A stretch of 64,000 bases of DNA from Paraspadella gotoi. Its lineage: Eukaryota; Animalia; Chaetognatha. This document shows, in pieces, positions 12,973 through 58,169 of the stretch; within the stretch, counting starts at the first letter, position 1; every line of letters starts with the position of its first letter. The notes below the pieces were generated by a model that saw only the letters and a list, made by a program, of their open reading frames with translations, searched no databases and had not been told where the DNA came from. Where the stretch lies: positions 15,091,082 through 15,155,081 of the forward strand of contig CM119268.1 of assembly GCA_051294375.1 (NCBI GenBank), in the 5' to 3' direction. A program made the position numbers and the translations under genes.

Positions 12973-15030
12973 ATGGCGTTGTCGTCCGATTGGGCTGACA
13001 ACTTGGAGCAGCACTGGAAGCAGAAATTTGACAATATGGATGAGGAGTTGGAAAACGACATAGTCGACGGAGAAAAGATGGATGCAGGCAAAATACTGAG
13101 AGAGAGAGAGAGAGAGAGAGAGAGAGAGAATAAAAAAAACAGATAGACAGAGAGAGAGACCTTTCTTCCGAAACCAACCTTTTCTTCGGCTTACGTTTCG
13201 TCAATTCAAGACCCTAGGAGACAGTCTACCTCAACGACCACACGGCCCACCGCACAACCGTCCAAATTTACTTACGAAGAGCGTCGCGGAGTTCCTCTCC
13301 GGTGGTTGTCATGGCAACTACTACGTACCTTTCTCTCTCTCTTTATCTTCGTCGTCGTCAATGGACTCTGGATCGCGTTCGTCGTCTACAGGGCGGGAGA
13401 TTTAGTAACTAATTGATAATAAATAGAAAAAAAAATATTGTTAAATAATGAATAAACTCAGGTCGTCGACGCCGTCGTCTTGGGCGTCGTGGGGACATTG
13501 GTGACGGTGGGACTCTTTTTGGGACGGAGGGTTGGCTTGATAAGCGAGGAAAAGAGGCGGAGGCGGGGTGGGCTGAGAGAAAAAAAAAGAAGCTGTTGTG
13601 GCGGTATATTCACACCGCCTCACGTCCACCATCCGTCAGCCAAATCCATTGGCTCAGAGGGGGAACACACCATCCCAGGCGTAGTGTTCCATCCACAGTC
13701 CTAACGACTTCCCTCTGCGTTGGCAAAGCGAGACCGTCCTAGGGTAACCGCGCCAGTGACTGGATGCGTCACTGAGGGTCGGAAGCCCCCAAAGCCAACA
13801 GTGAGATGCCCCATCCCAATGGGCATCACAGGCAACCCGGCTGTTGCCATACTGTCTCGTGATTTGAATGTGGTTGAATGTTTGACGAGCGAGGGTGTTT
13901 TACCAATATGATTATTTTTCTGAACTTATTTATTCCATTCAATTCTAAGTCTTTTTTCGTCTATATACGACAGGGTCGACATTTCGTCCATCCGATCGAT
14001 TCGGGAGCACGATCTCTAACGACAAAAACCAAAGTCTCATCGACGACGTAAATCTTCGTTTTTAATGCTTATCGACTTTGTTTTGACCAAATTCCTTTTT
14101 GTTTCCTGTCGCAGGATATGGGCCGCTCGGTCCATGCGGCAGCCTCTCGTCCGATCGCTTCTCCGCACACTCCCTCCAATTTGAGCTTCACGAAAGCGAT
14201 TAAGGACGAAATAGACCCGCCCTGTTCTCCACAAGAAATCAGGGTACGACTAAGTGAAATGCAGAGTTGCGATGCTAAAAAAACTATAATGAATTGACAA
14301 ACTCGTCAAACAAACCGCAATCCAAAGCGACTCTCGTGGTCCGACCGCCGCTTATATTCATTATTCAATCCTTCGTAACTGACGTTTAGGAACTCGCGTC
14401 GAGGATTCGTGGTCGGACGATGATCGAGTTGCTCGACGATGGAACCTACACTCTGCCTTTTCAAGATCGCAAGGAAGACGAAAAGCCATCAGTCGAAAAC
14501 ATAAGCATAGTGAAAGAAGAAAAGGTAAATTTACGAAGGGAATTTACGAAAGGAAAACAATTCAATGTATGTCAGCGATAGAAAGCACTTCAGTACTCCC
14601 TCGTAAATACCGCCTTGGGCACGGCCACAGTACGTAACAAATTCGAGGAGTGAAACGAGTTACGAGAAATAAAGCTGATGAGAGAATGAATGTCCGGAAG
14701 TGAATAAATTTCCTATTATCAAACTCATTGGTGACTCGCGGTTCCTAGTTATCGAGCACGGTGGACACGAAAGGCTCGACGGCCATCTCCACGCCTCCAA
14801 GGTCGTCGGTACGCACTTCGATCAGAGTTATTCCACCCTTTTCGGCCCTGCTGGAGCGGACGAGTCCTTTCGCTCACGCCACGGAGGGGCATTGGGTGGA
14901 GCATCGACAGGAACGAGACTCGGAATCGCCCGTCGTCGTCTTCGCGGATAAAGGAGCGAGGTGTCGAAGAAGTCGGATAATGTTCCTCGTCGACGACGAC
15001 GACGACACTTTGGACGAGAACAGAAAATAA
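12973..15030 (+). CDS. Uncharacterised multi-exon protein (MALSSDWADNLEQHWKQKF...EFLSGGCHGNYYVP...TLDENRK*)
   Basis: GC-rich exon-like blocks with splice signals at about 12973-13087 (GC donor), 13218-13403, 13462-13530, 13974-14046, 14115-14242, 14390-14524 and 14749-15030. One junction cannot be phased without an error, and no family was recognised. Confidence 0.5.
13594..13850 (+). mobile_element. Twister-bearing SINE/retrozyme-like element, copy A
   Basis: 5' hairpin ggcggt-atattcac-accgcc, cgtcc motif, A-box-like tggctcagaggg (no clear B box), twister core, then 3' hairpins gatgccc..gggcatc and ggcaac..gttgcc. Architecture is shared with copies B-D. Confidence 0.65.
13719..13799 (+). 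ncRNA. Twister ribozyme, type P5 (copy A); predicted cleavage U13745/A13746
   Basis: P5 gttggc/gccaac; GA; T1 CCG with L4 CGG; P1 tcctaggg; UAA; P2 cgc/gcg; T2 GC/GC; P3 cagtgac/gtcactg; P4 ggg-U-CGG-AA-GC-ccc. Confidence 0.85.
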
Positions 15031-15699
15031 GAGATTTGATTGGGAGACGCGGACCAAGCATGAGAAGAGAAAGAGGGAATTGCTTGGTTTTTGACGAGAA
15101 TTGATGACAAAAGGGATTGAGGAGAAGCTCTTAAAATAAAATTTGGCCATTTGTCGTTTGACCAATGAGAGAGAGAGTCTCTTGTAATTTCTTCTCGCGT
15201 CGCCGATCCGATTCCGACTTTTAGGTTCGATTCCTCTGCGATGTTCCTTTGAAGATTCGATCCGATTCGGAAAAAAACTAATATTTTTTTCTCTTTTTAT
15301 ATTTTCCCTTTCTCAAAACTCTACAAAATTGGGTAAACCGAAAGTTTTATTGACTTTAAAAAAAAAAACGGAAACAATAAATCGCGCGCAATAAAAATAA
15401 AAGAATAATTAAAAGAAGTGGACGGCTTAAAAAGTAAAGAGAGGTGACGTTGGATTTACGATCGAATTTTCGGTTGGTGAAATTTTTAAAAAAACAATAT
15501 CGTCCTTCGTAAAGTGCCGCGAAATTATGGTTTAATACTACATCATTAAGCATAAACGTATCTCACATTAATACTTACAAAAAGGTTGACTTTTTATTTA
15601 TTTAGTTTTCTTCATGGAAATATAGCATTAATACGTGGAATTTTAGTTAAAAACGAGAGATCAATGGACGATTTTAGTAGTTTTTTTTTTGCGTGACCG

Positions 15700-16894
15700 T
15701 TATTGATTCGGACTGGACGGCGTCGGGACGCGAACTTTCTTCGCCCCGATCATCTCGTGGTGAAGTTGGAATCTCAAGTTGAAGAGCGCTTGGCGAATCG
15801 TTTGTCCGTGCACTAGACGGAGAATGGGCGCGGCGATGAACTTAAGGAGAAAAATTAAATCATCTCATATCAATCAGAAATAAAACAATTTTATTATCAA
15901 TAAAAGAATGAAACAAAGAAACGAACTAAGAAAATACTAACTTTGAAGAGAAGATTGCTACGTCGGGAACTAATAATGACTTGAGCTTTGCACAGTGGTT
16001 CTTTCCGATCTTTCGTCTTGTCGTCGATATTTATCTGGCAAAGAAACAAGTTTTAGAAAGCGCTCTCGAGGAGACACTAATTTTTCTCCTCGGCAACTGA
16101 TCTTTGAGTCAGTTAGCTAATCGTCATTGTGAGAAAAACCTGGACGTGCGGCAACCACCAGCGATCCAGAACGAAGCCGACGTGAGCGTTGGGTTCGTAA
16201 CTCGTTACCAGAATCGACGTCATCATTTTTCCTATAAAAATAGAGAGATTATAAGTTCTCGCCTATAGAAAAACTGACTCTCTCGCGTGAACGTTACTGC
16301 GCAAATAAAATTGACAAATCATAACAATTTAATTTGATATTGACCAATCGCTTTCGTGTCTTTCGTTCTTTAAAACTCTTCATTCACCAATGAGCGGAAT
16401 TTCCATAGCCTCGTCGTAAGTCTTCCCTGGACCCAACGGATCGATACTTCCGTCCATATTCTCCTGGGGGCGGACAGCGAGAATTCCTGGGAACCACCTT
16501 GGCAGAGAAACCAGTTCGCTGGTTGAAAAAAAAAAAAAAAGAAGCGAGTATAAGTATTATTTTCATGAGAAATAATGAGCTAGAAGCAAAACAATTTTTT
16601 TCAAAATATTTCGGTATATATTTCTACGCCAACATCATTAATAAATATTTAACAAAGCTTAAGATTTGATAAATAACAAACAGCAACTTACAAATTTAGG
16701 AAAGAATTTCTTTTTCTCCCTCTTTCTTACCACAAATACGCGGCAACCAAGTGATGAGGCGCGGGTACGTTAATTCCTCCCTCAAAAATAACAATGGCAT
16801 CGTCATCGTCCTTGGAAACGTTTGCCAAGATGGCGACGACGACGACGATAAAGGCGATGCTGGTTCGAAAGGGAATCGAGTCGAACGAACTCAT
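15700..16894 (-). CDS. SRPBCC/START-fold (polyketide cyclase/dehydrase-like) protein with N-terminal hydrophobic anchor; 5 exons
   Basis: Spliced: MSSFDSIPFRTSIAFIVVVVAIL...INVPAPHHLVAAYLC|ELVSLPRWFPGILAVRP...GPGKTYDEAMEIPLIG|KMMTSILVTSYEPNAHVGF...|...|FIAAPILRLVHGQTIRQALFNLRFQL. The IxAPxxxV..Y....LPxWFPG, VTxYEP and C-terminal helix pattern is typical of SRPBCC. Confidence 0.7.
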
Positions 16895-57569: not shown

Positions 57570-57933
57570 TGTTTTCTTGACTCTTTTTTTTTCATTTTCA
57601 AATTTAATTGGTTTTTATTGAATTGTTTACAAATCGTTGTGCTCCTAATTGTTTTTGTTTATTAAACATGTTTAGAAAATTATAACTTTTGAAGTAAATA
57701 TTTATATCCCTCTTCTAAGAACTTTTGAAATATTTTAATAATCAGCTATAATATTGAAATCCTTAAATTTAAAACTCATATTTTGTTGGATATAAAGGTT
57801 TTAGAGGTCAAATAGCTAATGCTGGTCTGTCAGTGCTTAGTGCAGTAAGGTGATATGATTTATAGACAAAATTTAAACAATTTTGAGCAAACAATGCCGG
57901 ATCTGCCAACGATCATAGCTGTAATAATAATAA

Positions 57934-58169
57934 TGTAGTGGTAGTATTTCATACCCCACTACTCGTCCGAGAATCAGCAGCACCTATGGCGCCGGAGGTA
58001 GCACGAGCTCCTCCCAACCCAAAGGACTCGGGTTCGCGCCCTGCTGATTCACACAAGTAAAAGCGGGACGGGGCGTCTAACCCACCTGTAGTGTCGTACT
58101 ACAGCCCGATCCGAAGTTCGGGACCTTGTGTGCAACGGACGGTAAACTGCTCGCGGCATCGTCTTCCAC
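57934..58169 (+). mobile_element. Twister-bearing tRNA-derived SINE-like element, copy D (intergenic)
   Basis: 5' hairpin tagtgg..ccacta, ctcgtcc, A box tggcgccggagg (57987-57998) and B box ggttcgcgccc (58031-58041) inside the stem gaatcagcag/ctgctgattc, twister, and a cgtcttcc end. Flanks are (AAT)-rich. Confidence 0.78.
58050..58132 (+). ncRNA. Twister ribozyme, type P5 (copy D); predicted cleavage U58078/A58079
   Basis: P5 cacacaag/cttgtgtg; gcgg GA CGG ggcgtc UAA ccc AC; P3 ctgtagt/actacag; P4 cccga-U-CCG-AA-GT-tcggg. Confidence 0.9.

What the first reader, a model, noticed from the sequence alone, without database searches (positions are those of the whole stretch)
13594..58169. A family of tRNA-headed, twister-ribozyme-carrying short elements (four diverged copies in 64 kb)
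Seen: four 190-280 bp GC-rich islands (13594-13850 +, 39954-40139 -, 55030-55306 -, 57934-58169 +) share the same module order. Each has a T(G/A)T(T/A)(G/A)TGG start with a 5' hairpin, a cgtcc motif, a tRNA-like segment (A and B boxes in B, C and D; A-box-like only in A) and a complete P5-type twister core. A, C and D also have 3' extensions. Primary sequences differ strongly, yet pairings covary: T1 CCG/CGG (A), CGG/CCG (B, D), UGG/CCA (C); T2 GC/GC versus AC/GU (D); four different P5 stems; two unrelated P3 stems. The invariant GA, UAA, U and AA positions are kept. Known: twisters are self-cleaving RNAs with P1, P3 and P5 permutations, and self-cleaving ribozymes accompany retroelements (hammerheads in Penelope elements and retrozymes, HDV-like in R2/RTE). 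Inference: this is an abundant, old SINE/retrozyme-like family in which a Pol III head drives transcription and a twister cuts the RNA internally. I do not recognise this tRNA-head plus P5-twister arrangement as a described family.
Basis: partly seen in the sequence, partly recalled or inferred. Interest (0 to 1): 0.95.

Follow-up and report, generated by a model that had tools for sequence, protein, structure and literature searches.

The report
Abundant SINE family with twister-like core
Four copies of a many-copy short mobile element in an animal-type genome share a folded core that closely resembles a rearranged twister self-cutting RNA and is predicted, but not shown, to cut the element's own transcript.

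Summary
The four loci exist as described and share one module order. They form two sequence pairs, A/C and B/D, and models built from one pair find the other. Public contigs show that C and D are high-copy dispersed repeats. D ends sharply at 57934 and 58169/58170 with unrelated flanks. C has a 7-bp target-site duplication.

The body fits a P5-closed twister. P2, P3, P4, T1 and T2 pair in 92.9% of cells against 77.5% in shuffles, and 13 of 25 pairs show compensatory changes.

The fit is incomplete:
- P1 is only a 6-8 nt near-palindromic cap.
- Copy C has lost P4.
- Rfam gives one weak partial twister hit for the four loci (A, 16.1 bits).
- No tRNA is detected. B boxes are good in 3 of 4 copies and A boxes are weak.

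A second, far more abundant repeat in the window (R3) does hit Rfam Twister-P5 (E=0.007) and lacks P3. This may explain why the P3-bearing copies miss that model.

Self-cleavage is untested, and copies are not truncated at the predicted cut site. One RNA-derived contig joins the element's end to its start.

Verdict: a real SINE-like family with a twister-derived core, a new variant of known ribozyme-bearing retroposons.

The parts
13594..13850 (+). Copy A, whole element (A/C subfamily): 5' hairpin, cgtcc, head with an A-box-like site, twister-like core, 3' extension with two hairpins ending GTTGCCAT
   Evidence: Read. MFE z = -2.77. Pairs with C at local-alignment z = 15. Copy number not measured.
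13719..13799 (+). Copy A twister-like core. P5 GUUGGC/GCCAAC, P2 GCG/CGC, T1 CCG/CGG, T2 GC/GC, P3 AGUGAC/GUCACU, P4 GGG/CCC. Predicted cut between U13745 and A13746.
   Evidence: Module table. Partial Rfam Twister-P1 hit at 13751-13794, 16.1 bits, E=1.1. Found by the B+D model at E=0.8.
39954..40139 (-). Copy B, whole element (B/D subfamily). No 3' extension; it ends with the 3' strand of P5.
   Evidence: Read. MFE z = -3.87. 68% identical to D over 138 nt. B-box-like GGTTCTAGCCC at 40040-40050 with 1 mismatch. Copy number not measured.
39954..40028 (-). Copy B twister-like core. P5 AGCAGU/ACUGCU, P2 GGG/CCC, T1 CGG/CCG, T2 GC/GC, P3 7 bp, P4 CCUGA/UCAGG. Predicted cut between U40004 and A40003.
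   Evidence: Found by the A+C model at 18.7 bits, E=4.7e-4. No Rfam twister hit.
55013..55307 (-). Copy C, whole element (A/C subfamily) with an A-rich 3' end, flanked by AAAGCAG at 55308-55314 and 55006-55012
   Evidence: Read. Repeat depth spans bins 55014-55355. 7-nt shared word abutting the 5' end. B-box-like GGTTCAATTCC at 55192-55202 with 1 mismatch.
55101..55181 (-). Copy C twister-like core. P5 CGCUGA/UUAGCG, P2 GUGU/GCAC, T1 UGG/CCA, T2 GC/GC, P3 7 bp, P4 only 1 bp (defective). Predicted cut between U55153 and A55152.
   Evidence: Found by the B+D model at E=2.3. No Rfam twister hit. The family majority letter at 55150 turns the U.G pair of P2 into U-A.
57934..58170 (+). Copy D, whole element (B/D subfamily), 237 nt. 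Its 3' extension contains GGACG, complementary to the 5' cgtcc motif.
   Evidence: Read. MFE z = -3.62. Ends fixed by contigs: 33 (X1) and 21 (X5) contigs diverge before 57934; 8+32 (X1) and 6+18 (X5) diverge behind 58169/58170. B-box-like GGTTCGCGCCC at 58031-58041 with 1 mismatch.
58050..58132 (+). Copy D twister-like core. P5 CACACAAG/CUUGUGUG, P2 GGG/CCC, T1 CGG/CCG, T2 AC/GU, P3 6 bp, P4 CCCGA/UCGGG. Predicted cut between U58078 and A58079.
   Evidence: Found by the A+C model at E=0.35. No Rfam twister hit. Inside the core, the only family-majority differences listed are in the P3 loop, at 58094 and 58097.
6736..6868 (+). Copy of a second, more abundant retroposon 3' region (R3) with a P3-less twister-like core at 6767-6809. 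Other copies lie at 44974-45074 (-), 56775-56905 (-) and 23160-23243.
   Evidence: Rfam Twister-P5 RF02684, 21.2 bits, E=0.0073, model 1-58 of 58. Hit by the B+D model at E=0.1 and 5.3. BLAST copies. Depth up to 1.6 million against about 100 in X1.

Best explanation
These four loci are dispersed copies of two related subfamilies of a high-copy SINE-like retroposon. Its body folds as a circularly permuted, P5-closed, P3-bearing twister-type RNA, and the transcript is predicted (untested) to cut itself at a U^AA site (13745/6, 40004/3, 55153/2, 58078/9).

**Shown**
- Shared module order.
- Repetitiveness of C and D.
- Sharp ends of D.
- Compensatory changes in P2, P3, P4, T1 and T2.

**Inferred**
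- Transcription is driven from the B-box-bearing head by RNA polymerase III, or occurs as read-through.
- Copying is done in trans by a LINE-type reverse transcriptase.
- Master copies are kept under selection for the twister fold.
- P1 is reduced to a 6-8 nt near-palindrome. I therefore expect weak cleavage in a lone monomer and better cleavage when two units supply P1 in trans, as in tandem or multimeric transcripts. This would release unit-length RNA that could be circularised, as the hammerhead does in Sm-alpha elements and retrozymes.
- The conserved 5' cgtcc motif can pair with the GGACG segment that supplies P2 and T1. It may hold the ribozyme off in full-length RNA.
For: - **Anatomy and pairing:**
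- **Descriptor:** it finds only these 4 sites. Shuffles give 0.38 per window, and 0 of 300 with P4 and P5 required.
- **Covariation on an unguided alignment:** 92.9% paired against 77.5%. 13 of 25 pairs are compensatory against 6.0. In each case 0 of 500 shuffles reach the observed value. Slid controls pair 28-42%. T1 has 2 of 3 compensatory pairs and T2 has 1 of 2.
- **Reciprocal covariance models:** the A+C model finds B (E=4.7e-4) and D (E=0.35) at ranks 3 and 5. The B+D model finds A (E=0.8) and C (E=2.3).
- **Conserved letters match the Rfam consensus lines the tools printed:** UAA, GC-C, U...AAGC, and A before T1. They also match the module table of S. mansoni twisters (PMC8501958, section read).
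- **A related core in repeat R3** hits Rfam Twister-P5 at E=0.0073. That model has no P3.
- **Repetitiveness and ends:**
- **Target-site duplication of C:**
- **Head-to-tail joint 58170->57934** in one contig of X9, depth 87, and in none of X1 or X5. X9 holds contigs that skip two GT-AG-bounded stretches.
- **Efficient cleavage without P1** is reported for a mini-twister (PMC5408937, passages).
Against: - Rfam twister models reach gathering score on 0 of 4 loci. Only A gives a weak partial hit. The R3 hit is also below gathering (21.2 against 37.6).
- P1, counted among the three essential stems, is at most 1-2 bp in cis.
- Copy C lacks P4.
- B and D have A rather than GA before T1.
- There are only four sequences in two related pairs, and the structure was derived from them, which inflates the covariation measures (caveat printed).
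- No pile of copies starts at the predicted cut site among the rows shown (414 rows not shown), and depth shows no step at 58079.
- An internal ribozyme downstream of a SINE head would cut the head off (argument in PMC5786205, passage).
- The A box is weak, and the B box lies about 90-105 nt from the element's start.
- No tRNA is found by ARAGORN.
- The head-to-tail joint rests on one contig.
Confidence: 0.55

Rival explanations
1. The core is twister-derived or twister-shaped but no longer cleaves. It is kept as a structural module of the retroposon RNA, for instance as the element recognised by the partner reverse transcriptase, or as a stabilising domain like the highly conserved domains of other SINE superfamilies.
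For: - P1 is nearly absent.
- Full-length copies dominate, with no truncation at the cut site among rows shown.
- In A, D and R3 the core lies within about 130 nt of the 3' end, where LINE enzymes recognise SINE RNA.
- SINE bodies with conserved, unexplained domains are well known (PMC6887750, passages; PMC4758252, section read).
Against: - The letters that matter only for catalysis are kept in 4 of 4 copies: A after the cut site, and G in AAG.
- T1 and T2 covary.
- A structural role alone does not need the UAA and AAG letters.
Confidence: 0.25
2. The twister likeness is a coincidence. The elements are ordinary structured SINEs with three hairpins closed by a stem, and the short loop complementarities were picked out after the fact.
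For: - Rfam twister models are negative on 3 of 4 loci and weak on the fourth.
- T1 and T2 are only 3 and 2 bp.
- The descriptor and the structure were designed after seeing the loci.
Against: - There are three different T1 triplets, each with its complement at the canonical place. D has a matched AC/GU change in T2.
- The conserved letters sit at the canonical positions of the Rfam consensus.
- The independent Rfam Twister-P5 hit on the related R3 core has E=0.0073.
- Shuffles give 0 of 300 full matches.
Confidence: 0.12
3. The four loci are single-copy or low-copy genes for a structured non-coding RNA, not mobile elements.
For: - The copies differ strongly in sequence but keep their pairings, as paralogous RNA genes would.
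- All four are solitary in the window.
Against: - Contig depth over C and D is 100 to several thousand times that of the flanks.
- Dozens of contigs diverge into unrelated flanks exactly at D's ends.
- C carries a target-site duplication and an A-rich tail.
Confidence: 0.03

Closest known systems
Sm-alpha / Sj-alpha SINE-like retroposons of schistosomes (hammerhead-bearing)
   Same: A short non-coding, many-copy retroposon with a polymerase III-type head and an embedded small self-cleaving ribozyme. The ribozyme is thought to cut multimeric transcripts into units (review PMC6765202, passages).
   Different: The ribozyme here is twister-type, not hammerhead. No hammerhead hit appears in the window. 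All four copies here are solitary, not tandem.
Twister T-variants at the 5' end of Perere-3 (RTE-clade LINE) in Schistosoma mansoni
   Same: A twister-type ribozyme carried by a non-LTR retroelement. P3 and L4 sequences resemble those of B and D: GC-CUGUAG...UUAC.G, U.CC.AAGC (PMC8501958, abstract and sections 3 and 17).
   Different: Those are type P1, sit at the very 5' end, and copies begin at the cut site with the duplication feeding P1. Here the fold is permuted (closed by P5) and internal, and copies begin 145 nt upstream of the predicted cut.
Rfam Twister-P5 (RF02684) and Twister-P1 (RF03160)
   Same: The order is the same: P2 strand, (G)A, T1 strand, P1, UAA, P2 strand, GC, P4-L4-P4. 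The conserved letters match the consensus lines printed.
   Different: P1 is a 6-8 nt cap instead of a hairpin. T1 is CGG, CCG or CCA rather than CCC. P3 is present where the P5 model has none. Scores are far below gathering.
Metazoan non-LTR retrozymes (hammerhead circRNA elements)
   Same: Small non-autonomous elements whose ribozyme would give unit-length RNA open to circularisation by a tRNA ligase (PMC7229834, abstract and passages). One head-to-tail RNA contig was seen here.
   Different: Retrozymes carry hammerheads and lie in tandem arrays. These copies are solitary with fixed ends that do not coincide with the ribozyme cut site.
SINE superfamilies with highly conserved central domains (V, CORE, Deu, Nin-DC, MESC, Snail)
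   Same: A tRNA-related head plus a conserved structured body shared by otherwise diverged SINEs (PMC6887750, passages; PMC4758252, abstract and section 11).
   Different: None of the motif words of these cores was found in a twister-like context in the held supplements of two mollusc SINE papers. One paper had none of the words. In the other, three hits lay elsewhere: the TCGGAAGC pair in the tRNA-derived head. One file was not searched. No ribozyme has been proposed for those domains in the texts I read.

Membership tests
Twister ribozyme (Rfam clan CL00120) | P2 and P4 helices around loop L4 | tested here: met
   P2 is 3-4 bp in 4 of 4 copies. P4 is 3-5 bp in 3 of 4 copies; copy C has 1 bp.
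Twister ribozyme (Rfam clan CL00120) | Two pseudoknots, T1 (L4 with L1) and T2 (L4 with L2) | tested here: met
   Complementary in 4 of 4 copies. Compensatory changes in 2 of 3 T1 pairs and 1 of 2 T2 pairs. These are sequence complementarities only; the fold was not probed.
Twister ribozyme (Rfam clan CL00120) | Strongly conserved letters of L1 and L4 (U-A-A at the cut site, GC of L2, AAG-C of L4) | tested here: met
   UAA, (G/A)C-C and U-NNN-AAG-(C/U) occur in 4 of 4 copies, compared with the consensus lines and the table. T1 letters differ from the consensus CCC/GGG but are compensated.
Twister ribozyme (Rfam clan CL00120) | P1 stem next to the cut site (usually at least 2 bp) | tested here: not met
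   Only 6-8 nt lie between T1 and UAA. In cis this allows 2 bp plus a tetraloop in A and C, and 1 bp in B and D. A P1-less mini-twister is reported to cleave (PMC5408937).
Twister ribozyme (Rfam clan CL00120) | Score at or above the Rfam gathering threshold | tested here: not met
   0 of 4 loci. The best is a partial Twister-P1 match on A, 16.1 against 67.2 bits. None for B, C or D. The related R3 core scores 21.2 against 37.6 bits, E=0.0073.
Twister ribozyme (Rfam clan CL00120) | Site-specific self-cleavage at U-A giving 5'-OH and 2',3'-cyclic phosphate | not testable with these tools
   Only contigs of public runs were available. They cannot show RNA ends.
tRNA-derived SINE | Many dispersed copies with fixed ends and unrelated flanks | tested here: met
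   Met for C and D only.
tRNA-derived SINE | tRNA-related head with internal A and B boxes | tested here: inconclusive
   B box with 1 mismatch in B, C and D; random 250-nt pieces reach this in 50 of 4000. A box weak, 3-4 mismatches at the homologous site. A has an A-box-like site only. ARAGORN finds 0 tRNAs. No Rfam tRNA hit.
tRNA-derived SINE | Target-site duplications and a LINE-related or A-rich tail | tested here: inconclusive
   C has a 7-bp AAAGCAG duplication and an A-rich end. D's flanks are AT-rich and ambiguous. A and B show none. No RT or endonuclease ORF in the window to compare tails with: 0 among the 60 ORFs scanned against Pfam, 54 of them from the 116 ORFs of at least 90 aa.
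5'-terminal ribozyme retroposons (Perere-3 T-variant type) | Ribozyme at the 5' end, with copies beginning at the cut site | tested here: not met
   D-type copies begin at 57934, not at 58079 (rows shown).
Non-LTR retrozymes | Tandem genomic arrays and abundant unit-length circular RNA | tested here: inconclusive
   0 of 4 copies are tandem. One head-to-tail joint occurs in one RNA-derived contig and in none of two DNA runs.

The most novel reading that the evidence does not exclude
This animal genome's most abundant short retroposons (the A/C and B/D SINEs and the still more numerous R3 element) all carry a type-P5 twister whose P1 has collapsed to a palindrome. The ribozyme then assembles only when two units meet. 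It cuts multimeric transcripts into unit-length RNAs that are ligated into circles and copied back into DNA. These would be 'twister retrozymes'. They would also give the first mechanistic explanation for a conserved SINE body domain.
Probability: 0.15. Interest if true: 0.85.

Novelty: new variant of a known kind. Interest (0 to 1): 0.6.

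Why it matters
- The biological role of twister ribozymes in eukaryotes is largely open. The one worked-out case is 5'-end processing of an RTE LINE in a blood fluke.
- A permuted twister inside a many-copy SINE-like element would be a second, different use.
- It would extend the ribozyme-bearing SINE idea from hammerheads to twisters.
- It would offer a testable reason why some SINE bodies stay conserved while the rest of the element drifts.
- The near-palindromic remnant of P1 suggests a built-in switch between monomer (uncut) and multimer (cut) RNA. This can be tested directly at the bench.

Tried and rejected
- **Rfam and ARAGORN:** Rfam at gathering score over the whole window gave 0 hits. 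ARAGORN found 0 tRNAs. Rfam in E-value mode on each locus and on narrow cores gave only the weak A hit.
- **Whole genome:** none is held. Genome-wide copy counts, subfamily consensuses, a partner LINE and R-scape were therefore not possible.
- **Earlier findings of the scan:** nothing by place or by sequence.
- **Sequencing runs:** no RNA holder is listed. X9 is only guessed to be RNA. I treat it as RNA-derived because two of its contigs skip stretches bounded by GT-AG.
- **Limits of contigs:** they cannot show RNA ends, so the cut site could not be mapped.
- **5'-truncated copies at 58079:** none among the loose ends shown, with 414 rows not shown. One X9 contig of depth 2.3 matches only 58076-58170. 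This is too little to use.
- **Metagenome scans:** the exact B/D pattern gave 0 hits. The shorter pattern gave 122 loci, of which 2 passed a loose filter; neither is twister-like.
- **Extra copies in the window:** BLAST and nhmmer found no further copies of A-D.
- **Upstream flank of B:** it aligns weakly with D's 3' end (z=2.9). This is not enough to call a tandem remnant.
- **Protein Atlas on a window ORF:** no usable taxon.
- **Pfam on 60 ORFs:** no reverse transcriptase.
- **Literature:** nine searches (one search used sequence words) and supplements of two SINE papers gave no description of a twister in a SINE. One supplementary file of PMC4758252 was not searched.
- **Founding twister paper:** PMC3867598 is not held. 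I could not check whether its eukaryotic type-P5 examples include such elements.
- **Recalled resemblances:** I recalled likenesses of the head to particular tRNAs or 5S rRNA, and of the core to the CORE, Deu and V domains. I could not test them, so I do not rely on them.

Full report
**Setting.** The window is eukaryotic.
- No prokaryotic genome is held for it.
- It is AT-rich with GC-rich islands.
- It carries MED26-like, Kelch and C2H2 zinc-finger exons.
- Contigs of one public run skip two stretches bounded by GT-AG.
- I did not try to name the organism.

**The observation.**
- Each starts with T(G/A)T(T/A)(G/A)TGG inside a 5' hairpin.
- Each has a cgtcc motif, a region with a T-arm-like hairpin, and a core of three hairpins closed by a stem.
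- A, C and D have 3' extensions.
- Minimum-energy folds are more stable than shuffles for A, B and D (z = -2.8, -3.9, -3.6) and not clearly so for C (z = -1.3).

**How the four copies relate.**
- B and D are 68% identical over 138 nt. A and C align with z=15.
- Cross pairs are barely alignable (z 2.4-3.9, except C-D at -0.6) but mostly collinear.
- A covariance model built only from the A and C cores finds the B core at rank 3 (18.7 bits, E=4.7e-4) and the D core at rank 5 (E=0.35) in the whole window.
- A model built only from B and D finds A (E=0.8) and C (E=2.3).
- The four are therefore two subfamilies of one architecture. No further copies lie in the window.

**Are they mobile repeats?** Yes for C and D.
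- When contigs of three DNA runs and one probably RNA-derived run are laid on 54900-58300, summed depth over C is 11,655-53,400 against 76-216 in the flanks in run X1. Over D it is 103,723-450,146. The first D bin also covers a neighbouring 40-nt repeat.
- At 13-nt resolution, depth over D is 74,400-335,860 in X1 and falls to 1,553 or less beyond 58171.
- The tool warns that summed depth is not a copy number. I read it only as hundreds to thousands of related copies.
- More telling are the ends. In X1, 33 contigs diverge into unrelated AT-rich sequence just before 57934, and 8+32 diverge just behind 58169/58170. In X5 the numbers are 21 and 6+18. The element is therefore 237 nt with fixed ends and no simple tail.
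- C is flanked by AAAGCAG on both sides if it runs to about 55013, where the depth also drops. It ends A-rich.
- No reverse-transcriptase ORF lies in the window, so the partner element is unknown.

**Is the core a twister?** The module table gives this order for all four copies:
- P5 strand
- A-rich linker
- P2 strand
- (G)A
- 3-nt T1 strand
- 6-8 nt
- U-A-A
- P2 strand
- (G/A)C-C
- P3 hairpin
- P4 strand
- U-NNN-AAG-(C/U)
- P4 strand
- P5 strand

This is the order of the Rfam Twister-P5 consensus printed, with a P3 hairpin added at the place where the Twister-P1 consensus has one. It carries the letters listed for S. mansoni twisters in PMC8501958.
- All helices pair in all copies except P4 of C (1 bp).
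- T1 takes three forms, each compensated: CCG/CGG, CGG/CCG and UGG/CCA.
- T2 is GC/GC, but AC/GU in D.
- B and D differ by compensatory changes in P3 and P4.
- A descriptor with these features finds only the four loci. Shuffled windows give 0.38 partial matches and 0 of 300 full matches.
- On an unguided alignment, 92.9% of cells pair against 77.5% in shuffles. 13 of 25 pairs carry changes on both sides against 6.0. Slid controls pair 28-42%.
- These figures are inflated by the small number of related sequences, and because the structure came from the sequences.

**Evidence against a twister.**
- Rfam models do not recognise the loci. There are 0 hits at gathering score. In E-value mode the only hit is a partial Twister-P1 match on A (16.1 bits; E=1.1 for 4227 families). 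B, C and D give nothing even on 83-101 nt stretches.
- P1, one of the three stems called essential (PMC5408937), is missing as a hairpin.
- Two points soften this. A mini-twister without P1 is reported to cleave efficiently (same review). And the Rfam P5 model has no P3, so a 17-22 nt insertion plus non-consensus T1 letters would cost much of the score. That second point is my inference.

**An unexpected ally.** The B+D model also hit copies of another repeat, R3.
- R3 is the most abundant repeat in the stretch, with depth up to 1.6 million in X1.
- It is often 5'-truncated, as retroposon 3' ends are.
- Its core lacks P3, and it hits Rfam Twister-P5 over the full model at 21.2 bits, E=0.0073. 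This is below gathering.
- Its P2 is poor (2 bp plus an A.C).
- At least three retroposon families of this genome therefore carry the same permuted twister-like motif near their 3' ends.

**The head.**
- B-box matches with one mismatch occur in B, C and D at element positions 90-105. A lacks one.
- A boxes are weak.
- Neither ARAGORN nor Rfam sees a tRNA.
- The term 'tRNA-headed' is thus only loosely supported, and polymerase III transcription from position 1 is an inference.

**How it may work.**
- Full-length copies dominate, and there is no pile of copies starting at 58079 among the rows shown. The RNA that is copied into DNA is therefore uncut. As Kojima noted, a ribozyme behind a SINE head would behead it (PMC5786205).
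- The 6-8 nt at the P1 position are near-palindromes. A (UCCUAGGG), D (GGCGUC) and R3 (AGGCCU) are fully self-complementary if G.U is allowed. B and C are so except for the central pair (read and the alignment).
- In cis this gives 1-2 bp and a tetraloop. Between two units it would give a 6-8 bp P1.
- RNAalifold pairs the conserved cgtcc motif with the GACG that supplies P2 and T1. In D the motif can instead pair with GGACG in the 3' extension.
- I therefore propose that monomer RNA stays mostly uncut while tandem or multimeric RNA is cut to unit length. This is inferred.
- One contig of X9 (depth 87) joins 58170 to 57934, and no contig of X1 or X5 does. This fits a dimer transcript or a circle, but it is a single observation.
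- A few copies have the core replaced by an A-rich filler.

**Comparison and novelty.**
- Ribozyme-bearing SINE-like elements are known (Sm-alpha, with a hammerhead). Twisters in retroelements are known (Perere-3/RTE 5' ends). Ribozyme-made circles are known (retrozymes).
- A permuted twister inside a B-box-bearing SINE-like element was not found in nine literature searches or two supplement searches.
- Repbase, Dfam and the founding twister paper could not be consulted.
- Notes of this scan on other genomes describe twister-headed and circle-derived retroposons. They are leads that I did not test.
- I rate the finding a new variant of a known kind, of moderate to high interest, with cleavage still to be shown.

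Noticed in passing
6736-6868 (+), 44974-45074 (-), 56775-56905 (-), 23160-23243, 6503-6553: Very abundant retroposon 3' region (R3), often 5'-truncated. It has a P3-less twister-like core that hits Rfam Twister-P5 at E=0.0073 (6767-6809). P2 is weak, and T1 (UGG/CCA) and T2 (AC/GU) are compensated.
   Followed up: partly
57875-57916: A roughly 40-nt repeat just upstream of copy D, with summed contig depth near one million or more in X1. Contigs diverge at 57875 and at 57913/57916. Its nature is unknown.
   Followed up: no
58170 joined to 57934: One contig of the probably RNA-derived run X9 (depth 87, 46 nt on the shorter side) joins the end of the D-type element to its start. No contig of the two DNA runs laid in that call does. 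This could be a tandem transcript or a circular RNA.
   Followed up: partly
58062-58133: A few D-type copies elsewhere in the genome have the whole twister core replaced by an A-rich filler of 16-27 nt (joints 58061->58134 and 58061->58145).
   Followed up: no
cgtcc motif near element positions 29-35 (49-53 in C) and the GGACG segment of the core: RNAalifold pairs the conserved 5' cgtcc motif with the GACG/GAUG that forms P2 and T1 of the core. In D it can instead pair with GGACG in the 3' extension. This is a possible alternative fold that masks the ribozyme.
   Followed up: partly
13737-13744, 40010-40005, 55161-55154, 58072-58077: The 6-8 nt at the P1 position are self-complementary (fully in A and D, all but the central pair in B and C), as if a P1 hairpin had lost its loop.
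   Followed up: partly
56263-56333 and 57272-57402 (+): Two stretches skipped by X9 contigs are bounded by GT and AG. A spliced plus-strand transcript therefore runs between copies C and D.
   Followed up: partly
48017-52797 (+), 19387-20504 (-), 43191-43496 (-), 8042-9754 (+), 32275-36009 (+): Host exons: MED26-like (N-terminal and C-terminal domains), Kelch repeats and C2H2 zinc fingers. There are also two long GC-rich open frames (570 and 1244 aa) encoding low-complexity Ser/Thr/Pro-rich protein with no Pfam match.
   Followed up: no
4155-4179, 43885-43894, 61623-61801, 63333-63342, 63532-63820: Runs of N (assembly gaps or masked stretches), 513 bases in all.
   Followed up: no
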